Below, one piece after another: positions 5,269 through 55,906 of a DNA stretch of 64,000 bases. Position numbers and translations under genes: made by a program. Position 1 is the stretch's first letter; the number at the start of each line of letters is the position of its first letter. Below the pieces are notes generated by a model that ran no database searches, had not been told where the DNA came from, and saw only the letters and a list, made by a program, of their open reading frames with translations. Origin of the DNA: an uncultured Eubacteriales bacterium (GTDB taxonomy: Bacteria > Actinomycetota > Coriobacteriia > Anaerosomatales > JAAXUF01). The stretch covers positions 39,863 to 103,862 of the forward strand of contig CAZIPN010000001.1 of the NCBI GenBank assembly GCA_964541225.1, read 5' to 3'.

Positions 5269-5316
5269 CCGTGCTGGTCCCTCGGCAGATCGTGCTGAAC
5301 CAGTCTAGCAGTGCAC

Positions 5317-15872: not shown

Positions 15873-16529
15873 TCATACCCCTGCCATGCTTTCGGTGCGC
15901 GACAAGTAGTACAGCGTATGCAGCAATTCCCGCACCGGATCCGTGTTGTGCAGCGCAACGCCCTCAGGCACGCGGACGAACGCCGTGGAATAGTTCACGA
16001 TCACTCGCACACCCGCTCGGCACAGCCGATCGACAACACGCTGCGCCTCCGACGCTGGCACCGTGATGACGCCGAATTGAACGCCCTGCTCGGCCACCAC
16101 GGACTCAATCTCGTCAACGTCGCGCACAACAAGATCAGCGACTGGCAGGCCGACCTTGCCCGGATCGCTGTCAAAGAGCCCGGACACCACAAAACCTCGC
16201 GTACGCAGACCGTCATAACGTGCAAGCGCCAACCCAAGATTCCCCGCGCCCACAATCGCAATGCATTGCGCACGATCTGAACCAAGAATGTGCTGGAGAT
16301 GGTCGGCGAGCGAGACGATTCCGTAGCCGACGCCACGCGTCCCAAAGTGCCCGAAATACGCAAGGTCACGCCGGATCTGAGCCGCATTGACTTCGGTCAG
16401 CTCGGACAAGCGCGCGGACGAAACCGTCTGACGTCCCTCAGCCTGCAAATGGAGCAATGCATTCAGGTAGGATGGCAGCCGTTCGATCACGCCTGAGGGA
16501 ACGCTGTGCGTCGCTCGAACAGTTGGCAT
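15873..16529 (-). CDS. rex: Redox-sensing transcriptional repressor Rex
   Basis: Winged-helix N-terminus (RLPSYLNALLHL...SSARLSE...QIRRDLAYFG.FGTRGVGY) plus a Rossmann domain (IAIVGAGNLGLALA). ATG 16529 has GAGGAG upstream. Confidence 0.9.
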   Translation of the reverse strand: MPTVRATHSVPSGVIERLPSYLNALLHLQAEGRQTVSSARLSELTEVNAAQIRRDLAYFGHFGTRGVGYGIVSLADHLQHILGSDRAQCIAIVGAGNLGLALARYDGLRTRGFVVSGLFDSDPGKVGLPVADLVVRDVDEIESVVAEQGVQFGVITVPASEAQRVVDRLCRAGVRVIVNYSTAFVRVPEGVALHNTDPVRELLHTLYYLSRTESMAGV

Positions 16530-16569
16530 GAATCTCCTCAGGTCAGCCAGGAACCGATCGACACCCGTA

Positions 16570-16587
16570 TCGTAACAACTGTTACAA
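16570..16587 (-). promoter_or_regulatory. Rex-type operator candidate upstream of rex (gene-strand sequence TTGTAACAGTTGTTACGA)
   Basis: A 6-N4-6 palindrome GTAAC(A)-N4-GTTAC lies 41-58 nt upstream of the rex ATG. It shares architecture and outer TTGT...ACAA bases with the known Rex box TTGTGAA-N4-TTCACAA. Two more copies are at 47509 and 55840. Confidence 0.55.
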
Positions 16588-16658
16588 ACCCAAACAAGCT
16601 GCGCCGTTGTTGGATTCGAACGCCCCATCTCGGACTCCACAAGGCCAACATCGGGCTT

Positions 16659-42265: not shown

Positions 42266-43723
42266 TTACTTGTTGTGGCAACGCTCGCACACGCCGCGAT
42301 TGTCGGCACGCAAGAGAGCGCTTGAACCTTGAAGGTTCGCGCCGTTGTAGACGCCCTTGTCGGGATCGACACCGGCGATACCATCCCTAACGGGGTGATA
42401 CACCGTATCGGATCCGAGAGGAGTCGTGACGGTCGCGGTCTCAAGATGCGAAGCAGCGTAGCCAGTCATGTCGCTTGAGCTACCGTGAGCACGGTGGCAG
42501 GTCAGACAACCGATGTAGTTGTCAGTCCACGTGCTGTTGGTCGCACCGTTCTGCTCCAGGGGCACCCATGCGTCGTCCTCGCGAACCTGCTCAGTGAGCG
42601 AGCGGTTGTTCGGGTTCGGATCGGCACCAGCCGCAAGGGTCTGGTCGATCGGGTGACGATGGAAGTTCTGAGTCCCCACCTTCGGCGCAGGACCCGTGGC
42701 GGGCAGATACGGATCGTAGTTGTAGGACACCGCTGCGCCAGCCGAGGCCTGGTTGTAGTCCACGTGGCACGCCGAACACCACACTGACATCGACTTGCTG
42801 GCGGGGGTGCCAGCTGCAGCCGTGTCGGTATGCAGGATGACAGTGCCAGTCGTGTCGGTGTAGTTCGGACGGTAGTCGGCCATCTGCGCCGCTCCGTCAG
42901 CGTGCTTCAGCCAACCGCCCGTTGGGTTGCTGCCGTCCTTCACGCCGCCGCCACCGTTGGTGACGCTCGACGGGATCGGATAGCCCTGCTCATCCGAGAA
43001 GACGAACGGGTTTGGCGTCAGACCATCCACGCCTGTGTAGCCACCGACCACGGGACCGGCCGGGTTCGGCTGCGCCTTCAGAAGGCGGTAGTTCGACGAA
43101 CCATGCGGATCGTGGCAATCGGTGCACGTCAGGTTGGACTGAGTCGCAACCGCGTTGCCTGAACCCCACAGCGGACCGGAAACATCCATGCGGTGCGCGG
43201 ATGTGGTGCCCACGTAGGCAACTGTAGCGTTGGTCTGCCACTCGTAGGGATCGGGCATGCGATTGAAGCCACCGCCGTTGAGCGGTGCTCCGAACGTCGA
43301 GTCCGTCTGGTACGCGGTAGCCACATCGACTCCGCCGTCGACGGTGCCAAAGGCACCAGCCGAGACGGTGGTCACGCCACTGTTGGTCGGCGGAGTGATG
43401 CCACTTGCCGCCGAAGGACCGCTGTCAAAAACACCGCTCGCAACGTTCGTCGAAGCGCCAGGAGCGAGGTCGCCGTGGCACGCGTCACAGAAGTCCGTCA
43501 TCGTCGTGGCATTGCCGACGAGCAAGGCGCTCGCATGATCGTTGCCGTTGGAGTCTGTCCAACCGACGGTCGAGAACGACGTATGCGCGCGGTGACAGCC
43601 GGCGCACGAATCCGTGTCGTTCACGTAGCCGCCGTGCGGGCCGAAGTTCGCGTAAGCACCGCTGGCAAAGGCCAGGACGAAGCCCACACACAAGACAAGC
43701 GCGAGAGAGAATCGTTTCAACAT
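42266..43723 (-). CDS. Secreted hexaheme c-type cytochrome with an OmcS-like motif layout
   Basis: Signal peptide; six CxxCH (CAGCH, CDACH, CTDCH, CSACH, CLTCH, CERCH), the last one 2 residues from the stop. ATG 43723 has GGAGG 5 nt upstream and lies 16 nt after the hydrogenase large-subunit stop. Confidence 0.8.
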   Translation of the reverse strand: MLKRFSLALVLCVGFVLAFASGAYANFGPHGGYVNDTDSCAGCHRAHTSFSTVGWTDSNGNDHASALLVGNATTMTDFCDACHGDLAPGASTNVASGVFDSGPSAASGITPPTNSGVTTVSAGAFGTVDGGVDVATAYQTDSTFGAPLNGGGFNRMPDPYEWQTNATVAYVGTTSAHRMDVSGPLWGSGNAVATQSNLTCTDCHDPHGSSNYRLLKAQPNPAGPVVGGYTGVDGLTPNPFVFSDEQGYPIPSSVTNGGGGVKDGSNPTGGWLKHADGAAQMADYRPNYTDTTGTVILHTDTAAAGTPASKSMSVWCSACHVDYNQASAGAAVSYNYDPYLPATGPAPKVGTQNFHRHPIDQTLAAGADPNPNNRSLTEQVREDDAWVPLEQNGATNSTWTDNYIGCLTCHRAHGSSSDMTGYAASHLETATVTTPLGSDTVYHPVRDGIAGVDPDKGVYNGANLQGSSALLRADNRGVCERCHNK

Positions 43724-43739
43724 CTTCACCTCCTAATGG

Positions 43740-45791
43740 TTAGTGGATCGCACAAGCGAGACACGGGTCAAACGACTGGGCAACACGCAGAACCTCAACG
43801 CCAGCCTTCGTGGTGACATTGCCACTCTGGCCTTCGAAGGTCGTGGTGATGTCCGCAAGTGGCGTACCGATAACGGCCGCCTCGATGGCGCCTTTCTGCA
43901 GAGTCGCGCCAGAGCCAGTGGTCGGCGAGCCGTTCCACGTGGTCGGGACGATGCACTGGTACTTCGTGATCTTGCCAGCCTTGATGGTCACCTGGTGCAT
44001 GAGGGCACCCCGTGGAGCCTCGGTGCCACCCCAGCCCTGAACAGTACCGGCTGGGATGCTCTTCGTCCGCCACGTCGAGCCATCGGTGTCGTTCGCACCA
44101 CCGGTCTGGTGCTTGAGCTTACCAGTCCAGCTCGTGGTATCGCCGGGATTTTCGCACGCAAACATACCGGTGGCCTTGTCGTACGCACCAATCATCTGCT
44201 GCACAAGAACAAGCGACTCGATGCCGCGGCCACGCAAACGGTCCATGGTGGACAGACCAGCGGTCAGACCGATCACCCAGGCAGCAATGTCACCTGTGAT
44301 GACGGCGTTCGCATCGGTGTACGCAGCAACGATCGCAGCGTGCGACAAACCCGAAACCGTCGTGATCTCAGTTGGCGTGCCACCGTCATCGATGGTGAGG
44401 GTCGCGAGACCCGCATTCAGCAAGGCAACCGCGATGTCGGCCTCGATCATCGCCGGGTCAAGACCCATCGTGCTGTTGGCCGTCTTCACATACGCCGTAT
44501 AGGCGCCGCCCAAAGAAGTCGCAAGGGCCGTACCGTTGACGAACCACTCGTTAACATAGCAGCGCGCCATCGGACCGACTTCACAAGCCTTGCCGTTCCA
44601 GCGCGGGGCCTTCATGTACGAATAGCCGTTAGAGCGCTTCGGCTGCGTACGAGAGACATCGCCGGGATAGGCCGCAGTGGCGGGGTTGCTACCCGTGCCG
44701 TACACAGCGCTATCGCCCGCGTAGACCTGGTAGCGCGAGTTCTCGATGTCCTCCACAAGGTTGCTCGGGACCGAGTTGGTGCCTCCAGCCAGAAGCTTCG
44801 ACGCGACATCACCTTTGGTCTTCGCCTGGAAGTTGTCCGTTCCATCGTTGACATCGAGGAGTCCGCCCCACACGCCGAGCGGTGCAGTGCTGTCGGTCAC
44901 GTCCGAAGCCGGGAACGCACCCCAAGCCAGGAAGCGGCCGAGACCGGCGCCATAAGCGGGGCTGTCAGTGACGTTGCTCGCGTTGTCGTAGTTCGGATAC
45001 AGAACACCAAGGGCGAGGACAATCGGCACGTACTCCTTGATGATGAAGAGGCCGACCTCCTTCATGATGTCCTCGAACATCGTGACTCGGCTGGTCAGGT
45101 CCTCGGTGCCGTCGAACGTCACGCCGCCCGCACAATAGGTGGACGTCATGGGCATGCGGCCCGCGAACAGGGCGCCCGCCTCAAACGTGAGACGGCGGAT
45201 ACGCAAAGCCACGACGTAGCTGCGGATAACCGTCGACCAGACGTCAGCTGAGAAGCCCATAGTGCCGTCAATCAACGGAGCCACTCCGCGTCCGCCCACT
45301 TGCACGCCGTGCCCGGTGGACACGAGAGCGGGGCTGTAGTGCGCGTCATCGAAATACGGTGTCCAAGGCGGCATGTTCGGACCTTGAACGTAGCTCGGCG
45401 CAGCGAGGTGGTAGAAGTGGGTGATGTTCGACATCAGGAACTCTGAGCCGAGCACCAAGTTGCGAATACTGACGGCTTTGGCGGGAACGCCGTTGGTGCC
45501 GTCGTAGGCGAACGTGATGTGCCCAGCGCTATAGCCGAGCACAGTGTCGATCGCATACGTAGAGGTCATGCCGTGCGGCACTGGGCAGACCCCGCAGATA
45601 CGCTGCGTGAACGTGATGGCATCGTTAGCTTCCCGACCCAGCAAGAAGTTCTCGAAGCCGCGCCACATGTTGCCATGTGCGCTTGCGTCGGAAACGATGC
45701 CCGAGCCATCTGTGGTGACTTTGACGCCAAGGTGACCTTCAATACGTGAAATCGGGTCGACTTCGACAGTCACTCCGGTGCGATTACTCAT
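43740..45791 (-). CDS. [NiFe] hydrogenase large subunit (683 aa; no C-terminal maturation extension)
   Basis: N-terminal RIEGHLG and the L1 motif QRICGVCPVPH. The C-terminal L2 motif DPCLACAIH is followed immediately by the stop. Confidence 0.9.
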   Translation of the reverse strand: MSNRTGVTVEVDPISRIEGHLGVKVTTDGSGIVSDASAHGNMWRGFENFLLGREANDAITFTQRICGVCPVPHGMTSTYAIDTVLGYSAGHITFAYDGTNGVPAKAVSIRNLVLGSEFLMSNITHFYHLAAPSYVQGPNMPPWTPYFDDAHYSPALVSTGHGVQVGGRGVAPLIDGTMGFSADVWSTVIRSYVVALRIRRLTFEAGALFAGRMPMTSTYCAGGVTFDGTEDLTSRVTMFEDIMKEVGLFIIKEYVPIVLALGVLYPNYDNASNVTDSPAYGAGLGRFLAWGAFPASDVTDSTAPLGVWGGLLDVNDGTDNFQAKTKGDVASKLLAGGTNSVPSNLVEDIENSRYQVYAGDSAVYGTGSNPATAAYPGDVSRTQPKRSNGYSYMKAPRWNGKACEVGPMARCYVNEWFVNGTALATSLGGAYTAYVKTANSTMGLDPAMIEADIAVALLNAGLATLTIDDGGTPTEITTVSGLSHAAIVAAYTDANAVITGDIAAWVIGLTAGLSTMDRLRGRGIESLVLVQQMIGAYDKATGMFACENPGDTTSWTGKLKHQTGGANDTDGSTWRTKSIPAGTVQGWGGTEAPRGALMHQVTIKAGKITKYQCIVPTTWNGSPTTGSGATLQKGAIEAAVIGTPLADITTTFEGQSGNVTTKAGVEVLRVAQSFDPCLACAIH

Positions 45792-45813
45792 CTACTTGTC
45801 CCTCCTTCCACTA

Positions 45814-47202
45814 CTAGGAACGCACCACGAAGGGCACGTAGCTGTCCGGGTAGCCTTTCTCGGTGCAAGCCATGCATGGGTGACCGGCGCGAGTGCAGTT
45901 GCCGCCCTGATACGGAGCGCCGCCGCTCTCGGCAGTATTGGCCGTGGCGATTGCCTGCTGAGCTGTCGTGCCAACACCGACGTTCTGCGGCTGCTGCTGA
46001 TTCCAGCCGTGGACTGTACACAGGGAGTGCGCGGCAGGACCCTTGCAGCCAATCTTCTGCAGACATCCATGACCACCTGGGTGGGTGGCAAAGATACCCT
46101 TGACGTAGTAGCGATACTTCGAGCACTTCGGTCCATGCACCGTGCTCGTGTACACGGCCTTGAGACGACGCGTACCGTCAACGGCGGCACCATGGATCCC
46201 GATGCCAGTGCCGTTGGTCGAGCTCGTAGCAACACTCTCAAGGACGCCGAGCGTACCGACAGTACCGATGCTCTGGCCGTAGACACTCGGAACATCAACC
46301 ATGACCGCGACAACCGAGAGCACGAACCACCATGGGTTCGTCGGACAGCCGGGAACGTTGACTACCTTGGCAGCCGCAGCACTCGTGTGAGCGGTGAGGT
46401 AGTCGAAGGTCCCGAGAGCACCAGTTTGCGACTTGGTAGCATCGAAGCCTGCATCCGTTGACTTGATCGGAGGCTTGCAGGCCGGATAGCCGCCGAAGGT
46501 CGCACACTGGCCGATCGCAATGATTGCGACGCACTCAGGCTTCTCGCCGAGAGCCAGGACCATCTCGCCCGTGACGATATCGGCGGTGCCAGGTTCGTTC
46601 TTGGCGATCGAGCACCACGGTACGGTTGAGGAGTCGCCCCACGCGCCACCGTTGCTGGTCGCCTGAAGCGCGCCCTCTACGACGAGCACGAACGGCTTGG
46701 TGTTGTTGCTCGCAAAGTCGTCGAGCCAGCTGTACGCGAGCTCACCGCCCATACCCATGACCGTCTCGTGATAGAGCAAGTCGATCACATCGATGACGAT
46801 GTCGGCGATGTCAACCGCACCGGGATCGGGGCTCAGGTTGTTATGAGCAAGGGTGAAATCGTCTCCCGAGGTCAGACCATTCGTGATCGGCAGAGTGCCT
46901 GCGATCCCGAGCGCGTCTGCCGTGGAGATGTCTGTCCCGGTTGGATTGATGTACATGTCGAGCGCGACGCCGCTTGGGTTCTCGTAGATGCCGAGAACTG
47001 ACGTCGAGCACCCGGTGCATTCCGCGCCGTGAAGCCATACAACGCGAGGCTTGCCGAACGTGCCCTGGTAGACACTGCCCACGCCCGAGTTCGGGTCGTA
47101 GGCAACTGCCTCCATGATCTTGGAGGCTTCCACTTGGCTGAAGCCTGCGGCGGCGGCGAGTGCACCCAAACGAGTGACGAACTGTCGCCTGGTGATTGCC
47201 AT
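45814..47202 (-). CDS. [NiFe] hydrogenase small subunit with a Tat signal (462 aa)
   Basis: Tat signal MAITRRQFVTRLGALAAAAGF. Cluster ligands are HGAECTGCSTS, GQCATFGG, VPGCPTNP, GCLQKIGCKGP and AGHPCMACTEKGYPD. AGGAGG lies 8 nt upstream of the ATG. Confidence 0.9.
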   Translation of the reverse strand: MAITRRQFVTRLGALAAAAGFSQVEASKIMEAVAYDPNSGVGSVYQGTFGKPRVVWLHGAECTGCSTSVLGIYENPSGVALDMYINPTGTDISTADALGIAGTLPITNGLTSGDDFTLAHNNLSPDPGAVDIADIVIDVIDLLYHETVMGMGGELAYSWLDDFASNNTKPFVLVVEGALQATSNGGAWGDSSTVPWCSIAKNEPGTADIVTGEMVLALGEKPECVAIIAIGQCATFGGYPACKPPIKSTDAGFDATKSQTGALGTFDYLTAHTSAAAAKVVNVPGCPTNPWWFVLSVVAVMVDVPSVYGQSIGTVGTLGVLESVATSSTNGTGIGIHGAAVDGTRRLKAVYTSTVHGPKCSKYRYYVKGIFATHPGGHGCLQKIGCKGPAAHSLCTVHGWNQQQPQNVGVGTTAQQAIATANTAESGGAPYQGGNCTRAGHPCMACTEKGYPDSYVPFVVRS

Positions 47203-47289
47203 ACTCTTTCCTCCTTCACCAGATTAGACGTTGACGGAACTGGCAGATAAAGGGTTTCGGCCCCTGACGAAGATTCGGCGAATGAAAAA

Positions 47290-47333
47290 CCACCTCCCTT
47301 CAGTCCGCTCGTCAGAGGAACCGGAGGAGGTGG
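47290..47333 (-). promoter_or_regulatory. Terminator-like stem-loop followed by U5 inside the long hydrogenase 5' leader (possible attenuator)
   Basis: On the gene strand the sequence is CCACCTCC-(28 nt)-GGAGGTGG-TTTTTC. It lies about 90-130 nt upstream of the small-subunit ATG and downstream of the predicted promoter at 47532-47560. Confidence 0.35.
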
Positions 47334-47508
47334 CTCGCAAACGCGCCCCGCAAGAGTGATCAAAATCCCGCACGCCCCAGAGGCAGAACAACCAGCAGCG
47401 GCGATGGGATGTCGACCAAGCGGGCCTTCGTGCCGGCTCCAACCCGGTGGTCAAGACTGCTGTCTTGTACCTCTTCCTAGTAGATGCGTGCGACGCTCAC
47501 AGGCACGT

Positions 47509-47526
47509 ATGTAACAGATGTTACAA
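47509..47526 (-). promoter_or_regulatory. Rex-type operator candidate in the hydrogenase promoter (gene strand TTGTAACATCTGTTACAT)
   Basis: Perfect TGTAAC-N4-GTTACA palindrome, 5 nt downstream of the predicted -10. Confidence 0.55.
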
Positions 47527-47531
47527 CGTGT

Positions 47532-47560
47532 ACCTTAGTACCCCCACAACGCGTCGTCAA
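47532..47560 (-). promoter_or_regulatory. Predicted sigma-70-type promoter of the hydrogenase operon (TTGACG-17 nt-TAAGGT)
   Basis: On the gene strand, TTGACG is at 47560-47555 and TAAGGT at 47537-47532. This is a by-eye match only. Confidence 0.4.
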
Positions 47561-47667
47561 GCCTCTACTTGAGCTACGTCAAGTCGACGATTTGGCGCGG
47601 ACTTCTCGCACGCCAATCTGTCTTCACAAACGCCGAATGACCACCCACCGCAGCCGGACCATATCGC

Positions 47668-47696
47668 CTGCCGAGGACAACCCTTCCCCTCGGCAG
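47668..47696 (-). terminator. Hairpin after the NHL gene (end of the cytochrome operon)
   Basis: CTGCCGAGG-11 nt-CCTCGGCAG, a 9-bp stem about 85 nt after the stop at 47779. Confidence 0.5.
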
Positions 47697-47778
47697 AAGA
47701 CGCTCGCGCGCACTCGCGCACACCGTCCGTATGTCACCGACCGGTCTAGCCATCGGAGTCGTCTCCGACCCGATCGGT

Positions 47779-49296
47779 TCAGCTGTCGGCGTCGGGCTCC
47801 GACCCTTCGGCAGATGCTCGCTTCTCAAACCTGTTCAAGAACTCAACCCTGTTGACGACGTCAACCTGAAGCACTTTGGCCAGACGGCGATACTCGGCGT
47901 CTTCGGTGCACAGGACGGGCAGTCGCTTCGCGATCGACAAGATGATGGCAGTCGGCAGGTCGATCTCCATCTTCTCCATCAGGTCCCTGACGTCGGACTC
48001 CGAGTACGGTGTCGCCTCAAGTACCCTCGCGAGATCGACCTCTCCCTGCGTGATCTCCTTGAGGCGCTCATAGTCTTCCTCGGTCACGAACCACTTGCGG
48101 CGGTCGTGCACGAGGAGATCGAGTTCCTCGGCAGTCTCAAGCGCATGAATGAAGTCCGCTGTCGCGAAGAACTTCTTGCGCCGCAGGAACAGAAGGAGCG
48201 GAAGCAGGAGCAGTGGCAGGATGCACAGCCACCAGTTGCCACCCAGATGCGGCAGTGGAACCGGCGAGAGCTGCTCGGGCCACCCCCACACTTGGATTCG
48301 GCCGTTTGAAGTGTCGGCTATGAAGATCTTATTGTTCGAGGCGACGGAGCACCCGTTCGGATAGCTGAACTGGCCGTCAAGAATGCCCTCTTCGCCGAAG
48401 CTGACGATCTTGTCCCCCTTGGCAGACCAGATTGTTGCATCGTGAGAAAGCGTGTCGATGATCACGAAACGCTCCGGGCTGGTGGCCTTGTCTCCCGGGA
48501 AGGGATTCAGGAAGTCAATGCCGCGAGGAAGACCCTGTGTCACGATGATCTTCTTGAAGTTGCCATCCTTGTCAAAGACCTGCACACGACGGTTATTGCT
48601 GTCGGCGATGTAGACGAGCCCCTTGTGGTAGACGATGCCGTTGGGAAATTGGAACAGCCCCGGCATCTTGCCCGCATCGTTGACGATTCCCACGTTGCCC
48701 ACGGACTTCTTGAACGTGCCATCCGGCCCAAAGATCAGCAGTCTGTGCCCATTCAGTATCTCCGTGACATAGAGCGTCCCGTCCGGGGCAAACGCTAGAG
48801 CGACAGGAGCCCACTGGACGCCGTTTGTCTTGAACTTCGGCAGCTGGTTCTTGGGCAGATTCGGATTGAAGTCGCCGAGATACTTGCCGTTGAGATTGAA
48901 CCGCATGATCTTGCGCAGTCGGCGGTCTGTGACATAGAGCTCGTTGTTCACAGGATCGCGCGCGATGTTGAGCGGGATCACGGTCTGAGAGGCGCCGAAG
49001 CTCTTCTGGAAATTGCCCGCCTGGTCAAAGACGAGAATTCGGCGCCCTGCGGAGTCGCATGTGTACACCGTGTTGCCATCGACGTAGACGCCGATGGGCC
49101 GTTGGAGTTTGACCGTGCTGCCCGCAAACGAGTACAGAAACTGCGGCGGCTGAATGACGTCCGGAGAGTTCGACGCAAGCAGATTGAACTTGAGCTGGTG
49201 TGTTGCCTTGTAATAGGTGAAGTACGTGCCTATCAAGGCAAGCAGAACGACCAGGACCGCGATGACCGCGACCTTTCGTTTCTGTGAAGTGGTCAA
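47779..49296 (-). CDS. NHL-repeat beta-propeller protein flanked by two TM helices, with a C-terminal cytoplasmic domain of unknown function
   Basis: The N-terminal TM is VAVIAVLVVLLALIGTYF. Six NHL-like blades follow (P.G.....G..YV.D..N.R...F). The second TM is WWLCILPLLLLPLLLFL, then about 140 aa. The TTG start has GGAGG 5 nt upstream. Confidence 0.8.
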   Translation of the reverse strand: MTTSQKRKVAVIAVLVVLLALIGTYFTYYKATHQLKFNLLASNSPDVIQPPQFLYSFAGSTVKLQRPIGVYVDGNTVYTCDSAGRRILVFDQAGNFQKSFGASQTVIPLNIARDPVNNELYVTDRRLRKIMRFNLNGKYLGDFNPNLPKNQLPKFKTNGVQWAPVALAFAPDGTLYVTEILNGHRLLIFGPDGTFKKSVGNVGIVNDAGKMPGLFQFPNGIVYHKGLVYIADSNNRRVQVFDKDGNFKKIIVTQGLPRGIDFLNPFPGDKATSPERFVIIDTLSHDATIWSAKGDKIVSFGEEGILDGQFSYPNGCSVASNNKIFIADTSNGRIQVWGWPEQLSPVPLPHLGGNWWLCILPLLLLPLLLFLRRKKFFATADFIHALETAEELDLLVHDRRKWFVTEEDYERLKEITQGEVDLARVLEATPYSESDVRDLMEKMEIDLPTAIILSIAKRLPVLCTEDAEYRRLAKVLQVDVVNRVEFLNRFEKRASAEGSEPDADS

Positions 49297-49386
49297 CGTT
49301 GCCTCCGGAGGTGGCCGAACAAGTCGTCGCTCGGTGATGCAATCATGGTTGAACCGTCATCTTCCTTGGATCATCTCAGCCAGCTG

Positions 49387-50496: not shown

Positions 50497-50701
50497 TCGA
50501 TGCCTTACCTCTACGTATTCCTTGAGGCGCCGAGACCCGCTCGAGACCTCAACGGGGGCGGCCAAACCAGATGCACGCTATCCATGCGCTCGGTCCGTGT
50601 CAACGGGACACCCTGGGGCGAATCACTGCCGCTGCACCTGAACGCACGAGCGAATGCCGTGCCTCCGGTTCTCACATGGCGGTCGTCAATGAGCCGTCGC
50701 A

Positions 50702-52324
50702 TCAGATTCCTAGGTTCTTGTGACATCGGAGGCACAGCTCCGCACCACGATAGGGGGCAATGGTGTTGTTCAGGGGGTCAACCGCCCCGTGACACTGGTA
50801 GCACAATCGCAGGTCATGCCCTTGCTGAAGCTCGAGTTTGCGCGCCGCTGCGCTCGTACCGAAAGACACATGGCAGTCAAAACAGTGATAGGGCCGCCCC
50901 TTCTTCTTCGCCACATTGAAGTGGACGGCATGTTCGGCGATCCCCTTGTCCTGAATGGATGTTGGTGGCTGCTGTGCCGCCTCGGGGTGGCAACCCACGC
51001 AACTCGAAGCCACGAGCTCTGCATTGGCCACCTTCTGGTGGTGGCAGTTCTGGCACGTCTGCCGGTCCGTATGACAGATGTTGCAGTCGGCGCTGCTAAC
51101 ACCCGGCTCGGGCTTGTGGTTCTCGATCCAGTTGGCCGGATGCGGCATGGTCGTCTTGTGACACCGCCGACAGGAAGCGTCGTCGTGGCACGCGCCGCAA
51201 TCCCCTTTCTTGGCGATGAAGAGCTTGCCATGCTGAGCCTGCCAATCTCCCTTCTGATGTGACTTCGGGACCACCGGCTGCTTGGGCGCGCCCGGACTCT
51301 TGCTCTTGCCTTGGTGACATTGCACGCAGAACTGAGTCTTGTGGCACATCGAGCAGTACGATGGGTCGCTGCCAGCCCTGTCCTTGTGACCGCTCGCAAT
51401 GAATCGCGCTGTGTGGTTGTTCGGTGTCAGCTTGAACCCGGGCGGATGGCACTTGTTGCACTCAGCCGTGGCGACTAGTCCCTGACTCTGGTGCTGCAGC
51501 CCATGGCAGCGATAGCACGACTGCATGTCTGGCTTGACGGGCCCGCTCGCGGTGTGACCGAACGTGGGATGGCACGTCTCGCAGGCGTAGTCGCGCTGCA
51601 GGTGCACTGCGTGTGCGAAGATCAGCCGCCCAGGCACGATGTTGTCGAGATCCGGATGACAGTACTGACATTGCGCCATGTTGGTCGGTCCACTTGGATA
51701 GATCTTGACCGACGCGGGCTGCGGACGCTGGGCAACAACCGAGACGTACGCGTCAGCCAAAGCGGCGATCTTGACGCCCTTCTTCGCGTGACAGTCGTTG
51801 CAATCCTTGCTTGCCGTGTGGCACATCATGCATTGGTTCACGCCGCCACGACGCGCCAGCTCCGCGTGCGCTTTCCCGCTGAAAGACTTCGCAGGTTGAT
51901 GGTCGGCTGGCACGAGATCGAACGACGGCGTATGACACTTGTCGCACTCGGCAGTCGCGAGCGGACCTTGGGGTCCGTGACTCACCCCGTGGCACGCGAA
52001 GCACACTTCCATCGGCACCGAGTCCGTCGCTCCGTTCTGGTGGGGTATCCGCGAGTGGCACCCATCGCACGAAATCAGAAGGTGATTGCCGTGGTTGAAC
52101 ATCAACCCCGGCTTCTTCACCGTTCCTAGGTCAAGATGGCACGGTGTGCACTGTGACGAGTCGGTGACTGGCGCCCCAGTGTCGATGACGGGGCCCGCCG
52201 ACGTTGCCGAGCCGCTGTCTGCGGCCAGAGTCCCCGTGGCCGAAACAAGCACGAAGGTCACCGCCGCAAGCGCCACGGCGACTGCAATCACCCTCCTGCT
52301 CAGTTGTCCACTTCCACGACTCAC
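50702..52324 (-). CDS. Multiheme c-type cytochrome with 20 CxxCH motifs
   Basis: 20 CxxCH were counted in the translation. There is an N-terminal anchor or signal (VIAVAVALAAVTFVLV). I trimmed the start to GTG 52324, 20 nt after the upstream stop; the tracked ORF overlaps the upstream gene by 113 nt. Confidence 0.85.
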   Translation of the reverse strand: MSRGSGQLSRRVIAVAVALAAVTFVLVSATGTLAADSGSATSAGPVIDTGAPVTDSSQCTPCHLDLGTVKKPGLMFNHGNHLLISCDGCHSRIPHQNGATDSVPMEVCFACHGVSHGPQGPLATAECDKCHTPSFDLVPADHQPAKSFSGKAHAELARRGGVNQCMMCHTASKDCNDCHAKKGVKIAALADAYVSVVAQRPQPASVKIYPSGPTNMAQCQYCHPDLDNIVPGRLIFAHAVHLQRDYACETCHPTFGHTASGPVKPDMQSCYRCHGLQHQSQGLVATAECNKCHPPGFKLTPNNHTARFIASGHKDRAGSDPSYCSMCHKTQFCVQCHQGKSKSPGAPKQPVVPKSHQKGDWQAQHGKLFIAKKGDCGACHDDASCRRCHKTTMPHPANWIENHKPEPGVSSADCNICHTDRQTCQNCHHQKVANAELVASSCVGCHPEAAQQPPTSIQDKGIAEHAVHFNVAKKKGRPYHCFDCHVSFGTSAAARKLELQQGHDLRLCYQCHGAVDPLNNTIAPYRGAELCLRCHKNLGI

Positions 52325-52343
52325 GCCAGCAGAACTCCTGTTC

Positions 52344-53672
52344 CTAAAGCCCGAGGGCTCCCTTGATCGTGGCGATCTGCCGGATCGCCCAGTTCTCCTC
52401 CTGGGCCTCCGGCTTGCGATGAATGAGTTGCTTGGCTTGGCTGGCGAATTCCTCACTCGAGCCCTTGTGACAGCCAGGCTGACCGCACGTGTTGCCCAAG
52501 TTGGCTGGATTCACCGTCGATTTGGGATCCTGGTGCGCCAAGGACAGGTGCGAGCCGTGGCACTGCCAGCACGCTGGGGCGTCCGGCGCACCATCCTTGT
52601 AGGGCTGCCCATGGTAGTAGTCGTCGAAGGAGTTGTATTTGTCGAGGTGGCAGCGAGCGCACACCCGATAGGCATCGGCGTGCATTCTCGCCTTGCCGTC
52701 AGCGGTGTCGAGCGAGTAAATGAAATGCCCCCCGTGGCACGAACCACACGTGGCCGCGTTGTAGTCACCGCTTCGTATCTTCTGCGCGTGAGTCGATCCC
52801 TCGTAGTCGGCAACCGGCTGCGACAGCTTCCTGTCCTTGAGACTCTGGTGGCACGTGGCGCACTGAAGCCCGGCGTTCACGTTCCAGAGCTTGGTCGCTG
52901 CAGGAATCGAGTCGTATCGAAAGTCCGGGTGACACTGCTGGCACGTGATCTGGTAGTGAACCGACTCGTCAACCCCGGTGACCTGAAACGACTGGTCCGT
53001 GCCTCCCACGGGGGCGATCAGAGTCGAGTCCCCATGGCACGCATAGCAACCCGATCTCGCGTCCGGCTCGCCTGGATCGTAGGACCACCCGGACGCAGGC
53101 GTCCACGAGACCTTCGCACGCTCATGACACGTGGTGCAATCGGACTGCTGATGGCACATCATGCAGTCCTTGGTGACGTCGCTTCTCGCCTGTCCGGCGT
53201 GGCCGCGCCCTGCCCAGTCGGCAGTCCCCCCGTAGGGACACGATAGTTGCGCCTTGGGGGTGTTGTGGCATGCGCCACAGTCCGACTTCGCGATCACTCC
53301 CTGGGGTCCGTGATGCAGCCCATGGCAGTTCATGCACACCTTCATGGTGGGGCGCTGCGTTCCGCTCTTCTGATGCGGAAACTTCGTGTGGCAGTCGCTG
53401 CACTGCATCTTCACGTGGTAGCCGTGGGAGAACTTGATGTCGATCGCGAAGCTTGGGGCGGGATCGTAGTTCGCGTGGCACTTCGCGCACACGTCCTCTT
53501 CCACCTGCATGTTCTGGAGCTGGTCAAGCTGATTGAGAATGTCGGCCACCGGAATTCGGGGGCCGCTCGACTCCTCTGCCAGCGCGGGTGTTGCACTGAA
53601 CACGATCCCCGCCAGCATTGCGGCAACTACTGCCACCGCAAGAAGCCATGGAAACCTCAATCGAGCGTACAT
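52344..53672 (-). CDS. Multiheme c-type cytochrome with 12 CxxCH plus 1 CxxxxCH
   Basis: Signal peptide MYARLRFPWLLAVAVVAAMLAGIVFSATPALA. 12 canonical motifs, plus CGQPGCH at the position where the paralog upstream has CSQCH. Confidence 0.85.
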   Translation of the reverse strand: MYARLRFPWLLAVAVVAAMLAGIVFSATPALAEESSGPRIPVADILNQLDQLQNMQVEEDVCAKCHANYDPAPSFAIDIKFSHGYHVKMQCSDCHTKFPHQKSGTQRPTMKVCMNCHGLHHGPQGVIAKSDCGACHNTPKAQLSCPYGGTADWAGRGHAGQARSDVTKDCMMCHQQSDCTTCHERAKVSWTPASGWSYDPGEPDARSGCYACHGDSTLIAPVGGTDQSFQVTGVDESVHYQITCQQCHPDFRYDSIPAATKLWNVNAGLQCATCHQSLKDRKLSQPVADYEGSTHAQKIRSGDYNAATCGSCHGGHFIYSLDTADGKARMHADAYRVCARCHLDKYNSFDDYYHGQPYKDGAPDAPACWQCHGSHLSLAHQDPKSTVNPANLGNTCGQPGCHKGSSEEFASQAKQLIHRKPEAQEENWAIRQIATIKGALGL

Positions 53673-53718
53673 CGTGCGCTTGCCCTTCCTTCCGCCAGCA
53701 TCACAGACGAAGTCGGCC

Positions 53719-54792
53719 CTACGATCCGCCTATGCGGAATGCCGACAAGACACCACGAAACGCTCCCTGGATGGCGGCCGTGGCCGTGTCGACTGCCGAG
53801 ACAATCGGATTCTGCTGATAGAGAGCCTTCTGTGAGTGGATCAGCTGAGCGTATTGCACGAATCCCTGCCCCGCGTCCTTGTGGCACTGCGAACACGTTG
53901 CGACGAGATTCTCGGAGCTGGTCATTGAGTCGCGGTTGCTCGAGGGCAAGACGAGATGCGCGTTGTGACACTGCCAACAGGCGGGCGCGTCCGGCGCCCC
54001 GCGCTGGTAGGCTGCCCCGTGGTAGTAGTCGCTGTAATCCGCAGACGCCCGAGCGTGGCACTTTCCGCACATCGTCATCGCCGAGGCGCGCAGAGCCTCG
54101 CGGCCCGCTGCATCATTCTTCGCAGGAATGGAATGTCCCTGGTGGCAGTCCCCGCACACAGGCTTCGGCTTGCCGGGCGCAGACGAGTTCGCCGAACCAG
54201 CAGTTGCAGAAGCGCTTGTACTTCCAACGGTGGAATGGACGCTCCGTGCCCACTCCTGGAACTCGGCCGTGTGACAGCTCTTACACGAGCTCTTCGCGAT
54301 GGCCCGCCAATTCTGACCATCCGTCGCGTTGGCATGGGGGGTCTTGTACGTGAAGTCAACATGACAGTCCGTGCACAGCAGCTTCGCGTGCGCCGACCCC
54401 TGAAGAGCAAGCGTGTTGACGTACATGCTCACGACTTTCCCGCCGATGACCCTCACAAGGTTCCTGTTGCCGTGGCACACAAGACATCCGGACTTGCCGG
54501 CGCTTCCGATGCTCCAGTCCAGGCTGTATGCGGCGCGTGCGCTCTTCGATCCGGGAGTGACGGGTGTGGTGTACACCCCGCTCTCGTTCACGCCGGGGGG
54601 AACGTAGGTCGGGGCAACTAGGCCAAACGTGTTGTGTTTGGGAACCGTCGGCGTCTGTGACGCACTCTGAGCGAGCGCGGGATTCGGCGTGTAGACGGGT
54701 GCTTCCGGATATTGGAACGCCGCGAACGCAGGACTCGGCAACAGAAGAACCACCAAGAGCGAGAGCGTTGCGAGTATGTCGCGGACGAACAT
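53719..54792 (-). CDS. Multiheme c-type cytochrome with 7 CxxCH
   Basis: Signal peptide MFVRDILATLSLLVVLLLPSPAFA. The seven motifs are CLVCH, CTDCH, CKSCH, CGDCH, CGKCH, CWQCH and CSQCH. The C-terminal half is paralogous to the 12-heme protein (SDYYHGAAYQRGAPDAPACWQCHNAH). Confidence 0.85.
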   Translation of the reverse strand: MFVRDILATLSLLVVLLLPSPAFAAFQYPEAPVYTPNPALAQSASQTPTVPKHNTFGLVAPTYVPPGVNESGVYTTPVTPGSKSARAAYSLDWSIGSAGKSGCLVCHGNRNLVRVIGGKVVSMYVNTLALQGSAHAKLLCTDCHVDFTYKTPHANATDGQNWRAIAKSSCKSCHTAEFQEWARSVHSTVGSTSASATAGSANSSAPGKPKPVCGDCHQGHSIPAKNDAAGREALRASAMTMCGKCHARASADYSDYYHGAAYQRGAPDAPACWQCHNAHLVLPSSNRDSMTSSENLVATCSQCHKDAGQGFVQYAQLIHSQKALYQQNPIVSAVDTATAAIQGAFRGVLSAFRIGGS

Positions 54793-54820
54793 GCGGAGTT
54801 CTCTCTCGTATCGTGCGCTG

Positions 54821-55726
54821 CTAGACGTGTTCCGGCTCATCGAAGATTGGCGTGTCCTCGTGGCCATGCTCAAGATCGTGTGGGGTGCCCGAGTGGTGCT
54901 CGGCACCAGTGAGACCAAAGAAGTCCTGGAAGGCTGGGAAGTCCTCGCTCAGCGCAAGATAGACGTGCACGGTCGTCAAGATGATGAACAGCCAGCAGAT
55001 CACGTAGTGCGCGGTACGTGCGTACCAGCCGGCAAGATCGGTTGATCCGACTATCCCGCCAAGCCACCAGCCGAGAAGGAGATCTCGAGGCGTCACCCCG
55101 GAATGCCCAAAGGTCGTGATGGCGCCGGTAAACGGGATCGTGTACGTCAGCAGTGCCAGTCCGGTGAACGCCTGTAGCACAAGCAGTGGAACGAACGTCG
55201 TGTACGTCATCTTCTGCATGACGTTGTACTTGCCGAAATGTGGCTTCTTCTCAGGGGGGATCAGGAAGAGGTAGTAGGCAATGACCTTAGGGGCGGTGGT
55301 GATGTCGCGACGCGTGATCGCGAACTCCTTGTAGTCACGCCGCTTGGACCCAAAGGCGTACCACAGCCGAACGATCAGGTTGATGATGACAATGACCATC
55401 GCGACGTAGTGGACCCAGCGCATACCCCAACGCGCGTACGGACCCTTCACAAACGGAAGCAGCCCAGGAAACCTGATGTACATGCCCGAAACCACCAGTG
55501 CGATCATGGCTGCAACATGCTGAAAGTGAAGGAGCTTGGGGGTTGCCGGGATCGGACCGCCCTCGTGATGCGGCCATTCCTTCTTGATGAAGCGGCGTTT
55601 CGCTCGGCCGCTTATGACGTTGCCGATGAGATGCAGCAGCAGACCGACAACCAAACAGGCGTACAACGCCGTGAATATGACGTCGAACCACACATTCAGT
55701 TGGGTCATCAGCACGGCCGCCGGCAC
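54821..55726 (-). CDS. Integral membrane cytochrome b-type subunit (FdnI/HydC Ni_hydr_CYTB-like), putative quinol-interacting subunit
   Basis: About 5 TM helices with conserved His in TM segments (LHLIGN, LHFQHVAAM, WVHYVAMV, HYVICW). It is the first gene of the cytochrome operon. GTG 55726 has AGGAG 7 nt upstream. Confidence 0.65.
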   Translation of the reverse strand: MPAAVLMTQLNVWFDVIFTALYACLVVGLLLHLIGNVISGRAKRRFIKKEWPHHEGGPIPATPKLLHFQHVAAMIALVVSGMYIRFPGLLPFVKGPYARWGMRWVHYVAMVIVIINLIVRLWYAFGSKRRDYKEFAITRRDITTAPKVIAYYLFLIPPEKKPHFGKYNVMQKMTYTTFVPLLVLQAFTGLALLTYTIPFTGAITTFGHSGVTPRDLLLGWWLGGIVGSTDLAGWYARTAHYVICWLFIILTTVHVYLALSEDFPAFQDFFGLTGAEHHSGTPHDLEHGHEDTPIFDEPEHV

Positions 55727-55839
55727 CCCCTTACTCCTGGGTTGCTAGACCAATTCGAGGAAAGGCTGGTCTCGCGGGACGGCAAGCCTGACCTGGAAGC
55801 CCGCATCCATGCCGGTGGCGTGCGGCACCGTCCGCGCGT

Positions 55840-55857
55840 TTGTAACAGTAGTTACAG
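55840..55857 (-). promoter_or_regulatory. Rex-type operator candidate in the cyt b/multiheme operon promoter (gene strand CTGTAACTACTGTTACAA)
   Basis: TGTAAC-N4-GTTACA palindrome, 5 nt downstream of the predicted -10 and 114-131 nt upstream of the GTG start. Confidence 0.55.
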
Positions 55858-55862
55858 ACACC

Positions 55863-55892
55863 AGTCTACGGAGCGCCAGGGCGCAGTGTCAA
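55863..55892 (-). promoter_or_regulatory. Predicted promoter of the cyt b/multiheme operon (TTGACA-18 nt-TAGACT)
   Basis: On the gene strand, TTGACA is at 55892-55887 and TAGACT at 55868-55863. By eye only. Confidence 0.4.
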
Positions 55893-55906
55893 CGAGGCAC
55901 GATCGC

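What the first reader, a model, noticed from the sequence alone, without database searches (positions are those of the whole stretch)
47509..47560. Rex-type palindrome 5 nt downstream of the -10 box of the hydrogenase/OmcS-like operon
The gene strand reads TTGACG-17 nt-TAAGGT-acacg-TTGTAACATCTGTTACAT. The 18-mer is a perfect TGTAAC-N4-GTTACA palindrome with the outer TTGT...ACA(A/T) bases of the canonical Rex box (TTGTGAA-N4-TTCACAA), but with a different inner triplet (AAC, not GAA). Its position over the predicted transcription start is the classic repressor arrangement. Two further copies exist, at 16570-16587 (rex itself) and 55840-55857 (cytochrome operon). This would put H2 oxidation under NADH/NAD+ control through a taxon-specific Rex half-site.
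Basis: partly seen in the sequence, partly recalled or inferred. Interest (0 to 1): 0.6.

Follow-up and report, generated by a model that had tools for sequence, protein, structure and literature searches.

The report
Conserved variant Rex operator, hydrogenase promoter
The 18-base palindrome in front of the hydrogenase genes is a real, evolutionarily conserved repressor binding site that also sits in front of the redox-sensor gene rex and a cytochrome operon, so it is most likely an unusual, lineage-specific version of the Rex operator that ties hydrogen use and electron export to the cell's NADH level.

Summary
TTGACG-17-TAAGGT-acacg-TTGTAACATCTGTTACAT lies on the minus strand at 47560-47509. 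The window holds three GTAAC-N4-GTTAC sites (16572-85, 47511-24, 55842-55). All three are intergenic and score 26-30 bits, against at most 19 bits in shuffles.

Comparative data show a real operator:
- It sits upstream of rex in 47 of 51 environmental Coriobacteriia genomes, filling the promoter spacer and overlapping the -10.
- It sits upstream of most hydrogenase orthologues with enough upstream DNA, always 3-16 nt after a conserved TTGAC-17/18-TAnnnT promoter.
- It sits upstream of the cytochrome b/multihaem operon in 3 of 4 relatives.
- No stray copies occur in about 1 Mb.

This geometry fits a repressor. Rex is the most economical binder (about 0.68) but is unproven:
- The half-site has A where canonical Rex needs G (position 5).
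- The Rex recognition helix is ordinary.
- GTAAC-N4-GTTAC is also the published consensus of HcpR2 (CRP/FNR family).

"OmcS-like" is not supported by sequence.

The roughly 320-nt distance to the start codon is explained by a conserved leader RNA. It has a terminator and a covarying antiterminator helix and matches no Rfam family.

The parts
47509..47526 (-). Operator of the hydrogenase operon: TTGTAACATCTGTTACAT (T-TGTAAC-N4-GTTACA-T)
   Evidence: 29.6 bits. Orthologous sites lie at -137 to -400 from hydS in 22 metagenome loci and in L119-L122.
47555..47560 (-). Inferred -35 hexamer TTGACG of the hydrogenase promoter
   Evidence: TTGAC(n) is conserved 17-18 nt upstream of a TAnnnT hexamer in nearly all orthologous loci. 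Not called by the consensus scanner.
47532..47537 (-). Inferred -10 hexamer TAAGGT (TAnnnT type)
   Evidence: The positionally conserved TAnnnT hexamer ends 7-16 nt before the GTAAC core, that is 5-14 nt before the 18-mer (5 nt here), in orthologues. No experimental start site.
45814..47202 (-). [NiFe]-hydrogenase small subunit with Tat signal (MAITRRQFV)
   Evidence: Precomputed Pfam Oxidored_q6 + NiFe_hyd_SSU_C for the identical protein.
43740..45791 (-). [NiFe]-hydrogenase large subunit, 683 aa, periplasmic group-1 type
   Evidence: PDB sequence hits to periplasmic [NiFe]/[NiFeSe] large subunits, E 4e-61.
42266..43729 (-). 487-aa multihaem c-type cytochrome (six CxxCH motifs), last gene of the hydrogenase cluster
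   Evidence: Pfam Paired_CXXCH_1 and related families. No PDB sequence hit at E<=0.01, OmcS included.
16570..16587 (-). Operator in the rex promoter: TTGTAACAGTTGTTACGA; fills the spacer and overlaps the -10
   Evidence: 30.3 bits. TTGTAAC-N4-GTTAC(G/T/A)AT is conserved in 47 of 51 Coriobacteriia rex loci.
16592..16597 (-). Inferred rex -35 (TTGTTT)
   Evidence: cTTG(T/C)nn is conserved 17 nt upstream of TAC(G/T/A)AT across rex loci.
16569..16574 (-). Inferred rex -10 (TACGAT), sharing 5 bases with the operator
   Evidence: This explains why the last operator base is G or T rather than A at rex sites.
15873..16529 (-). rex gene (218 aa; start MPTVRATH, GGAG 7 nt upstream)
   Evidence: Pfam Put_DNA-bind_N + CoA_binding. 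PDB Rex hits E 2e-45. DNA-contact Arg, wing GxRGVGY, GxGxxG, the sensing Tyr and the C-terminal Asp are all present.
55840..55857 (-). Operator of the cytochrome b / multihaem cytochrome operon: CTGTAACTACTGTTACAA
   Evidence: 26.6 bits. Conserved upstream of cyt b in L119 and L120 (exact) and L122 (1 mismatch).
55863..55892 (-). Inferred promoter of the cytochrome operon: TTGACA (55892-55887), 18 nt, TAGACT (55868-55863); the operator starts 5 nt later
   Evidence: The same TTGACA-17-TAnnnT layout occurs in L119, L120 and L122.
50702..55726 (-). Cytochrome b (54821-55726) plus three multihaem cytochromes (53719-54918, 52344-53672, 50702-52456)
   Evidence: Pfam Ni_hydr_CYTB, Cytochrome_C7 and others. 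Synteny is conserved in L119-L122.
47430..47452 (-). Leader RNA 5' element GACCACCGGGTTGGAGCCGGCAC (antiterminator strand)
   Evidence: Present once per hydrogenase locus and nowhere else. Pairs with the left arm of the terminator: 93.9% of cells paired, and 0 of 500 shuffles reach the covariation score.
47284..47334 (-). Leader terminator: GCCACCTCCTCCGG...GGGAGGTGG followed by UUUUU
   Evidence: -30.6 kcal/mol, z -4.1. The stem is 91% paired across 21 loci.

Best explanation
The palindrome is the operator of a dedicated repressor, most probably the Rex protein encoded 31 kb away in the same window.

In this lineage of environmental Coriobacteriia the Rex box reads T-TGTAAC-N4-GTTACA-A instead of TTGTGAA-N4-TTCACAA. 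The overall architecture is the same: an 18-bp inverted repeat, 7-N4-7, with outer TTGT/ACAA.

At the hydrogenase promoter (TTGACG-17-TAAGGT) the operator begins 5 nt after the -10. A bound dimer would therefore cover the transcription start and block initiation or promoter escape. The same arrangement is used at the cytochrome b/multihaem cytochrome operon. At rex itself the operator fills the spacer and overlaps the -10, which gives autoregulation.

By analogy with characterised Rex proteins, a high NADH/NAD+ ratio would release the repressor and switch on the periplasmic hydrogenase and the cytochromes together.

Transcripts that start must then pass a second checkpoint. This is a conserved leader of about 320 nt with an intrinsic terminator and a competing antiterminator helix.

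Status of each step:
- Shown: the sites, their conservation, their position relative to conserved promoter hexamers, the presence of an intact Rex gene, and the RNA pairings.
- Inferred: that Rex is the binder, the NADH response, the start site, and the direction of regulation.
For: (1) Three exact cores lie in the window, all intergenic, far above chance.

(2) The motif lies upstream of rex in 47 of 51 Coriobacteriia MAG loci whose Rex is 58-75% identical. It is always embedded in cTTG(T/C)nn-17-TAC(G/T/A)AT. Related TTGCAAC-N4-GTTAC sites lie upstream of rex in two outgroups at 46-47% identity, one of them AT-rich.

(3) An exact core lies upstream of hydS in 22 of the 36 metagenome loci (31 of which were screened) and in all four of L119-L122. 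Most loci without a site are cut off by contig ends; L083 is cut within the operator itself.

(4) The core lies upstream of the cytochrome b operon in 3 of 4 relatives.

(5) In about 987 kb of window plus loci, all 74 exact cores are these sites. About 0.4 would be expected from base composition, by my own calculation.

(6) Positions not used in the search are conserved: T2 in 63 of 63 sites, A17 in 19 of 19, T1 in 48 of 63, T11 in 58 of 63. The half-site is therefore 7 bp long, as in Rex boxes.

(7) The geometry is repressive at all three promoters.

(8) The window's Rex keeps the DNA-contact residues: the Arg equivalent to R48, Arg at the position equivalent to K49, and the wing R-G. It also keeps the NAD(H)-sensing residues.

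(9) Rex is known to control NiFe and FeFe hydrogenases, cytochromes and itself in other taxa (PMC6391272).

(10) No canonical Rex box exists in the window; the best matches have 3 mismatches and lie inside long ORFs (3562-5298 and 31087-32589).

(11) No CRP/FNR gene occurs in the window or, by tblastn, in any fetched locus.
Against: - No binding data exist.
- The half-site has A at position 5 and C at position 7. In S. aureus Rex, changes at positions 4 and 5 hurt binding most (PMC2883068). In T. maritima Rex, Lys49 reads the G at position 5 (PMC8836258).
- The clade's recognition helix NAAQIRRDLA is not special. Asn at its first position occurs in 70 of 134 diverse Rex representatives, and near-identical helices occur in outgroups and in a Chloroflexota Rex whose own upstream site is canonical TGTGA-N6-TCACA. 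I therefore cannot point to a residue that explains the new specificity.
- GTAAC-N4-GTTAC is exactly the consensus published for HcpR2, a CRP/FNR-family regulator (PMC1274295).
- Only about 1 Mb around chosen genes was examined, never a whole genome. The full regulon, and the presence or absence of a CRP/FNR gene elsewhere, are unknown.
- One outgroup with the same M50-CBS/rex synteny (L124) has no site.
- The promoter is not called by the consensus scanner.
Confidence: 0.68

Rival explanations
1. The operator is bound by another dimeric helix-turn-helix regulator, most plausibly a CRP/FNR-family protein of the HcpR2 type. Its published consensus is GTAAC-N4-GTTAC. It would act here as a repressor of rex, the hydrogenase and the cytochromes.
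For: - The core is identical to the HcpR2 consensus (PMC1274295).
- The Rex recognition helix shows no clade-specific change, while the box differs at a position critical for canonical Rex.
- Whole genomes were not searched, so a CRP/FNR gene elsewhere cannot be excluded.
Against: - The conserved half-site is 7 bp (T-TGTAAC-A). It extends outside the 5-bp FNR-type core and into the spacer.
- All three promoter geometries are repressive, not the -41.5 activator position typical of this family.
- The motif follows the rex gene through 47 of 51 genomes and into distant outgroups of different base composition. An unrelated regulator would have to co-travel with rex.
- No CRP/FNR gene and no hcp gene occur in the window (Pfam), and no CRP/FNR homologue occurs in the fetched loci (tblastn).
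Confidence: 0.2
2. The neighbouring LysR-type regulator (55907-56893, minus strand) binds the palindrome. Its position just upstream of the cytochrome operon is conserved.
For: The synteny LysR-(small Se_S_carrier gene)-cyt b is conserved in L119, L121 and L122, and LysR directly precedes the operon in the window; in L120 an aminotransferase gene takes its place.
Against: - The site lies downstream of the -10, not at the -65/-35 positions of LysR activators.
- It is not between divergent genes.
- The dyad does not fit T-N11-A.
- It would not explain the near-universal site in the rex promoter, which is unlinked to LysR.
- No site lies upstream of the LysR gene itself in L119-L122.
Confidence: 0.04
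3. The palindrome acts as RNA, as a 5'-terminal hairpin of the transcript that affects stability or translation, rather than as a protein-binding DNA site. Alternatively it is a chance palindrome.
For: At the hydrogenase and cytochrome promoters the site would be transcribed, at about +1 to +18.
Against: - At rex the site lies between the -35 and -10 and would not be transcribed.
- The sequence itself is invariant, not just its pairing; no compensatory changes are seen.
- Chance is excluded by the statistics and the conservation.
Confidence: 0.02

Closest known systems
Rex operator (ROP box, TTGTGAA-N4-TTCACAA) and Rex regulons of Gram-positive bacteria, Thermus and Thermotoga
   Same: - An 18-bp inverted repeat with 7-N4-7 spacing.
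- Outer TTGT/ACAA is kept, and A at position 6 is kept.
- The site sits inside or just after core promoters.
- The rex gene itself carries a site.
- Targets are a hydrogenase and respiratory cytochromes, as in Caldicellulosiruptor, Streptomyces and Bacillus (PMC6391272, PMC2883068).
- The Rex protein has all DNA-contact and NAD(H)-sensing residues.
   Different: - The inner triplet is AAC instead of GAA: G5 to A and A7 to C, both invariant in 63 distinct sites.
- The spacer base next to the right half-site is a conserved T, giving TGTAACA-NN-TGTTACA.
- A known variant (TTGTTAA in clostridia, from my memory of Ravcheev 2012, which I could not retrieve) changes only position 5.
- No binding experiment exists for this lineage.
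HcpR2 (CRP/FNR family) sites upstream of hcp in Clostridium, Bacteroides, Thermotogales and Treponema
   Same: The core consensus GTAAC-N4-GTTAC is identical (PMC1274295).
   Different: - The motif here has additional conserved flanks (T-T ... A-A) and a conserved spacer base.
- The sites are in repressor positions.
- No hcp gene was seen in the window, and no CRP/FNR gene was seen next to any site.
- The motif is linked to rex.
Terminator/antiterminator leaders (riboswitches and attenuators) of Gram-positive bacteria
   Same: The hydrogenase leader has a strong intrinsic terminator. The terminator's 5' arm can instead pair with a conserved upstream element, closing a domain of about 115 nt in this window (about 135 alignment columns). 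This is the standard layout of a transcriptional riboswitch or attenuator.
   Different: - No Rfam 15 family matches at E<=1.
- The trigger (ligand, protein or ribosome) is unknown.
- The terminator arms are Shine-Dalgarno and anti-Shine-Dalgarno look-alikes (GGAGGUG and CACCUCC).

Membership tests
Rex operator / Rex regulon | 18-bp inverted repeat, two 7-bp half-sites separated by 4 bp | tested here: met
   All three window sites and 63 distinct orthologous sites have 7-N4-7. One locus (L049) has N5.
Rex operator / Rex regulon | Outer bases TTGT...ACAA | tested here: met
   T2 is T in 63 of 63 sites and was not part of the search pattern; G3 and T4 were fixed by the search pattern. T1 is T in 38 of 44 rex sites and 10 of 19 hyd sites. 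A17 is A in 19 of 19 and A18 in 13 of 19 hyd sites.
Rex operator / Rex regulon | Inner triplet GAA/TTC, with G at position 5 critical for binding | tested here: not met
   The triplet is AAC/GTT in every site. Positions 4 and 5 are the most sensitive in S. aureus Rex (PMC2883068), and Lys49 contacts this G in T. maritima Rex (PMC8836258).
Rex operator / Rex regulon | A Rex protein (winged helix + Rossmann fold with GxGxxG) encoded in the genome | tested here: met
   Gene at 15873-16529 on the minus strand. Pfam PF06971 + PF02629. PDB Rex E 2e-45, with contact and sensing residues aligned.
Rex operator / Rex regulon | Site in the promoter of rex itself (autoregulation, common but not universal) | tested here: met
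   Found in 47 of 51 related loci and in the window, and in two outgroups in variant form.
Rex operator / Rex regulon | Repressor position overlapping the core promoter or start site | tested here: met
   Judged relative to conserved -35/-10 hexamers. Start sites are inferred, not mapped.
Rex operator / Rex regulon | Rex binds the site and NADH releases it | not testable with these tools
   Needs EMSA or footprinting with purified protein.
Rex operator / Rex regulon | Recognition-helix change matching the changed half-site (co-variation of protein and site) | tested here: not met
   The helix NAAQIRRDLA and the wing are ordinary among 134 diverse Rex representatives. A Chloroflexota Rex with TAAQVRRDLA has a canonical site.
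HcpR2 / CRP-FNR sites | Consensus GTAAC-N4-GTTAC | tested here: met
   The core is identical (one search compared).
HcpR2 / CRP-FNR sites | A CRP/FNR-family regulator gene, usually next to the target (hcp) | tested here: not met
   No cNMP-binding/HTH_Crp protein or hcp occurs among the 51 window ORFs scanned. No tblastn hit with E. coli CRP or FNR occurs in about 1 Mb of loci. Whole genomes were not searched.
HcpR2 / CRP-FNR sites | Site centred near -41.5 or -61.5 (activator geometry) | tested here: not met
   Sites are centred at about -20 (rex) or about +6 to +20 (hyd, cyt) relative to the inferred promoters.
Intrinsic-terminator attenuator / riboswitch (leader RNA) | GC-rich hairpin followed by a U-run, plus a mutually exclusive alternative helix supported by covariation | tested here: met
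   Terminator -30.6 kcal/mol, z -4.1, followed by UUUUU. The terminator is 91% paired. The antiterminator is 93.9% paired, has 4 pairs with double changes, and 0 of 500 shuffles reach its score.
Intrinsic-terminator attenuator / riboswitch (leader RNA) | Membership of a described RNA family | tested here: not met
   No Rfam 15 match at E<=1 in the window leader or in six orthologous loci.
OmcS-like cytochrome (title of the finding) | Sequence similarity to OmcS | tested here: not met
   No PDB chain matches the 487-aa cytochrome at E<=0.01. Only generic multihaem Pfam families match. A fold comparison was not run.

The most novel reading that the evidence does not exclude
Hydrogen uptake and extracellular electron export in these subsurface Coriobacteriia are gated by two stacked, previously undescribed devices.

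The first is a Rex subfamily whose operator has drifted to TGTAAC at a position that canonical Rex cannot tolerate, without any change in the recognition helix. Specificity would then be set elsewhere in the protein.

The second is a new class of riboswitch-like leader RNA, specific to [NiFe]-hydrogenase operons, that senses a second signal, for example nickel or a redox or nucleotide metabolite.
Probability: 0.2. Interest if true: 0.75.

Novelty: new variant of a known kind. Interest (0 to 1): 0.5.

Why it matters
Rex is the main NADH/NAD+ sensor of Gram-positive bacteria, and its box is usually treated as nearly invariant.

A lineage-wide operator that differs at the most binding-critical position, while the recognition helix is unchanged, would be a clean natural test case. 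It would show how winged-helix specificity is really set. It would also mean that standard Rex-box scans miss the whole regulon in this class.

Biologically, it predicts that environmental Coriobacteriia (the OPB41/Anaerosomatales-type lineages common in the subsurface) co-regulate three things by redox state: a periplasmic uptake hydrogenase, its cytochrome b, and multihaem cytochromes. This gives a concrete handle on H2-driven metal or electrode respiration in organisms that are barely cultivated.

The conserved attenuator RNA adds a second, unexplained control layer that is testable in vitro.

Tried and rejected
- **Canonical Rex box.** A scan of the window found only 3-mismatch hits, both inside long ORFs. 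In rex-upstream regions of planctomycete and other distant loci there was nothing, apart from one Chloroflexota locus with TGTGATATTTTTCACA.
- **Consensus promoter/terminator scanner on 47150-47850.** No calls. I rely on cross-species conservation of the hexamers instead.
- **Asn as specificity determinant.** I tested whether Asn at the first position of the Rex recognition helix determines A5. Rejected: Asn is the commonest residue there family-wide. The K49-to-R change is also shared with Rex proteins that bind canonical boxes (from memory for B. subtilis; seen in the Chloroflexota locus L060).
- **Search for a CRP/FNR gene.** Pfam on 51 window ORFs and tblastn with E. coli CRP and FNR on all loci found none. 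This says nothing about the rest of the genomes.
- **LysR as binder.** Rejected on geometry and on the rex sites.
- **Leader peptide.** The 76-aa ORF 47224-47454 spans the leader, but its TTG start is TTA in the closest relatives. I did not pursue coding potential further.
- **Local hairpin of the 5' leader element.** Only 72-74% paired with weak covariation, so it is plausible but not established.
- **Literature.** No paper in the library links TGTAAC/GTTACA to Rex or describes Rex in Coriobacteriia. Ravcheev et al. 2012 could not be retrieved.

Full report
**1. The observation**

- TGTAAC-N4-GTTACA with up to two mismatches occurs four times, against 0.57 expected.
- The core GTAAC-N4-GTTAC with up to one mismatch occurs exactly three times, at 16572-85, 47511-24 and 55842-55. 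The expectation is 0.46, and no shuffle reaches three.
- All three sites are intergenic.
- A weight matrix built only from orthologous sites in other genomes scores them 30.3, 29.6 and 26.6 bits. The next window hit is 10.2 bits and coding. Shuffled windows reach at most 18.9.

**2. Gene context**

All relevant genes are on the minus strand.

- The focal site lies in a 576-nt gap. Upstream is an NHL-repeat gene. Downstream is a Tat-signal [NiFe]-hydrogenase small subunit (45814-47202), a 683-aa large subunit (43740-45791; closest solved relatives are periplasmic [NiFe]/[NiFeSe] enzymes), and a six-haem cytochrome (42266-43729).
- The 16570 site lies 40 nt upstream of a bona fide rex gene (Pfam PF06971 + PF02629; E 2e-45 to T. 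maritima Rex).
- The 55840 site precedes a hydrogenase-type cytochrome b and three multihaem cytochromes.
- The organism is an uncultured environmental member of the Coriobacteriia.
- "OmcS-like" is not supported. The cytochrome has no sequence match in the PDB.

**3. Is the site functional?**

Three independent sets of orthologous loci say yes.

(a) rex. Of 51 Coriobacteriia MAG loci whose Rex is 58-75% identical, 47 carry an exact GTAAC-N4-GTTAC core. They read TTGTAAC-N4-GTTAC(G/T/A)AT, 20-70 nt upstream of rex. The four exceptions are:
- a decayed left half (L014);
- a 5-nt spacer (L049);
- a lost site (L017);
- a rex fused to the upstream gene with no intergenic space (L021).

(b) Hydrogenase. 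Among 36 metagenome loci encoding hydrogenase small subunits 43-72% identical, 22 have an exact core at -137 to -400 from the start codon. Most of the rest are cut by the contig end; L083 is cut inside the operator itself. Only L097, L101 and L110 have room and no site, and L109 has a one-mismatch version.

(c) Cytochrome operon. In four long contigs fetched through the cytochrome b, three have the site upstream of cyt b. All four have it upstream of the hydrogenase.

In the 987 kb then held, the 74 exact cores were all these sites and nothing else. Base composition predicts about 0.4.

**4. Anatomy of the motif**

Positions that were not part of the search pattern are conserved:
- T2 in 63 of 63 distinct sites;
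- A17 in 19 of 19 hydrogenase sites;
- T1 in 48 of 63;
- the spacer base T11 in 58 of 63.

The element is therefore T-TGTAACA-NN-TGTTACA-A, with 7-bp half-sites.

At rex sites the last base is G or T rather than A. The right half-site there doubles as the -10 hexamer TAC(G/T/A)AT.

**5. Promoter geometry**

In the orthologues, however, a TTGAC(n) hexamer sits 17-18 nt upstream of a TAnnnT hexamer. That hexamer ends 7-16 nt before the GTAAC core, that is 5-14 nt before the 18-mer.

- The cytochrome operon has TTGACA-18-TAGACT and then the operator after 5 nt. In relatives it is TTGACA-17-TAnnnT.
- At rex the pattern is cTTG(T/C)nn-17-TACGAT, with the operator filling the spacer.

The site is thus at about +1 to +20 at two promoters and at about -28 to -8 at the third. 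All are repressor positions and none is an activator position. Start sites are inferred, not mapped.

**6. Who binds?**

The case for Rex:
- The motif follows the rex gene through the whole clade. In the form TTGCAAC-N4-GTTAC it also reaches two outgroups at 46-47% identity. One of these comes from an AT-rich genome, and L128 keeps the same M50-CBS/rex synteny.
- The architecture and outer bases are those of the Rex box.
- The targets are typical: a hydrogenase, cytochromes and rex itself (PMC6391272).
- The window's Rex keeps the DNA-contacting Arg, the wing R-G and the NAD(H)-sensing residues.
- No canonical box is present.

The case against:
- Position 5 is A, not G. In S. aureus Rex, positions 4 and 5 are the most sensitive (PMC2883068). 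In T. maritima Rex, Lys49 reads that G (PMC8836258).
- I looked for a matching protein change and found none. The helix NAAQIRRDLA and its leading Asn are common in the family.
- A Chloroflexota Rex with an almost identical helix sits behind a canonical TGTGA-N6-TCACA.
- GTAAC-N4-GTTAC is the published consensus of HcpR2, a CRP/FNR regulator (PMC1274295).

Against that rival:
- the half-site is longer than an FNR-type core;
- the geometry is repressive;
- the motif is linked to rex;
- there is no CRP/FNR or hcp gene in the window, and no CRP/FNR homologue in any fetched locus.

My estimates are Rex 0.68, another regulator 0.2, the neighbouring LysR 0.04, and an RNA-level or chance explanation 0.02.

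**7. Why the site is 310 nt from the gene**

The intervening leader is conserved.

- A 5' element, cCGGGTTGGAGCCGGCAc (window 47452-47430), occurs once per hydrogenase locus and nowhere else.
- About 95 nt downstream of it (115 nt between starts) lies a strong terminator. Its arms are GCCACCUCC... and ...GGAGGUGG, followed by a U-run (47334-47284; -30.6 kcal/mol, z -4.1).
- RNAalifold on 21 loci pairs the 5' element with the left arm of the terminator.
- That long-range helix is 93.9% paired. Four of its pairs show double changes, and no shuffle reaches its covariation score.
- The terminator stem is 91% paired.

The two helices are mutually exclusive, which is the layout of a transcriptional riboswitch or attenuator. 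A local hairpin that could sequester the 5' element is only weakly supported.

The leader is also present in the loci that lack the operator (L097, L101, L109, L110). It is therefore an independent control layer. No Rfam 15 family matches. The trigger is unknown.

**8. Comparison with known systems, and novelty**

The element works like a Rex operator and meets most defining features of one. It fails the inner-triplet test, and binding cannot be tested here. I found no description of this box or of Rex in Coriobacteriia in the searchable literature.

I classify it as a new variant of a known kind. Interest is moderate (0.5):
- The regulatory logic is ordinary for Rex.
- The change at a binding-critical position without a helix change is a real puzzle.
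- Standard Rex-box scans would miss this regulon.
- The stacked, unclassified attenuator RNA raises the ceiling.

**9. Limits**

- Everything rests on sequence comparison of MAG and metagenome contigs.
- No complete genome could be scanned.
- Promoters and start sites are inferred.
- The direction of physiological control (NADH high leads to hydrogenase and cytochromes on) is by analogy only.

Noticed in passing
window 47284-47452, minus strand (leader between the operator and hydS); same element in L083-L116 and L119-L122: A conserved leader RNA of about 170 nt. It has a 5' element CGGGTTGGAGCCGGCA, a variable middle containing GGGG..GGGA, and an intrinsic terminator whose left arm can instead pair with the 5' element. 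That alternative helix covaries: 93.9% paired, 0 of 500 shuffles. No Rfam match. It occurs only upstream of these hydrogenase genes, including loci without the operator. It is a candidate new attenuator or riboswitch.
   Followed up: partly
L003, L004, L006, L008, L009, L011-L013, L018, L031, L046, L051, L052: 20-50 nt downstream of the rex operator: Many rex leaders carry a conserved hairpin, GAATCGTCCGGCAGCGATTCG(A/G)GG, just before the start codon. The window's rex leader does not have it. The function is unknown.
   Followed up: no
window 42266-56893; L119-L122: The gene order is largely conserved: LysR regulator, cytochrome b, three multihaem cytochromes, TPR protein, NHL-repeat protein, then hydrogenase small and large subunits (LysR is replaced by an aminotransferase gene in L120). 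In three of the four relatives (L119, L121, L122) a Fur-family regulator with a CbiM/CbiQ/ABC (Ni/Co-type) transporter lies just upstream, and all four have a small Se_S_carrier gene between the upstream gene and cyt b. The window lacks that small gene.
   Followed up: partly
window 43740-45791 (-): The hydrogenase large subunit is 683 aa, against about 500-600 aa for solved group-1 enzymes. PDB alignments cover only the N-terminal roughly 300 residues and the C-terminal roughly 110. This implies a large central insertion or a divergent region.
   Followed up: no
window 35331-38330 (-): A 999-aa multihaem cytochrome with FG-GAP repeats lies a few kb from the hydrogenase cluster. No operator precedes it.
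   Followed up: no
window 47224-47454 (-): A 76-aa ORF with a TTG start spans the whole leader, including the terminator. Its start codon is not conserved in the closest relatives (TTA), so it is probably not a gene.
   Followed up: partly
window 53719-54918 and 54821-55726 (-): The mechanically listed ORFs for cytochrome b and the first multihaem cytochrome overlap by about 100 nt. In relatives the genes are separated by 10-35 nt, so the true start of the cytochrome is probably further downstream.
   Followed up: no
L128 about 2890-3000; L126/L127 upstream of rex: Outgroup rex genes (46-47% identity) carry TTGCAAC-N4-GTTAC, with C instead of T at position 4. L128 has extra half-sites in tandem (GTTACTATATCTGTTACAAG and TTGTAACAATTAC). 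This hints at drift of the operator along the Rex tree.
   Followed up: partly
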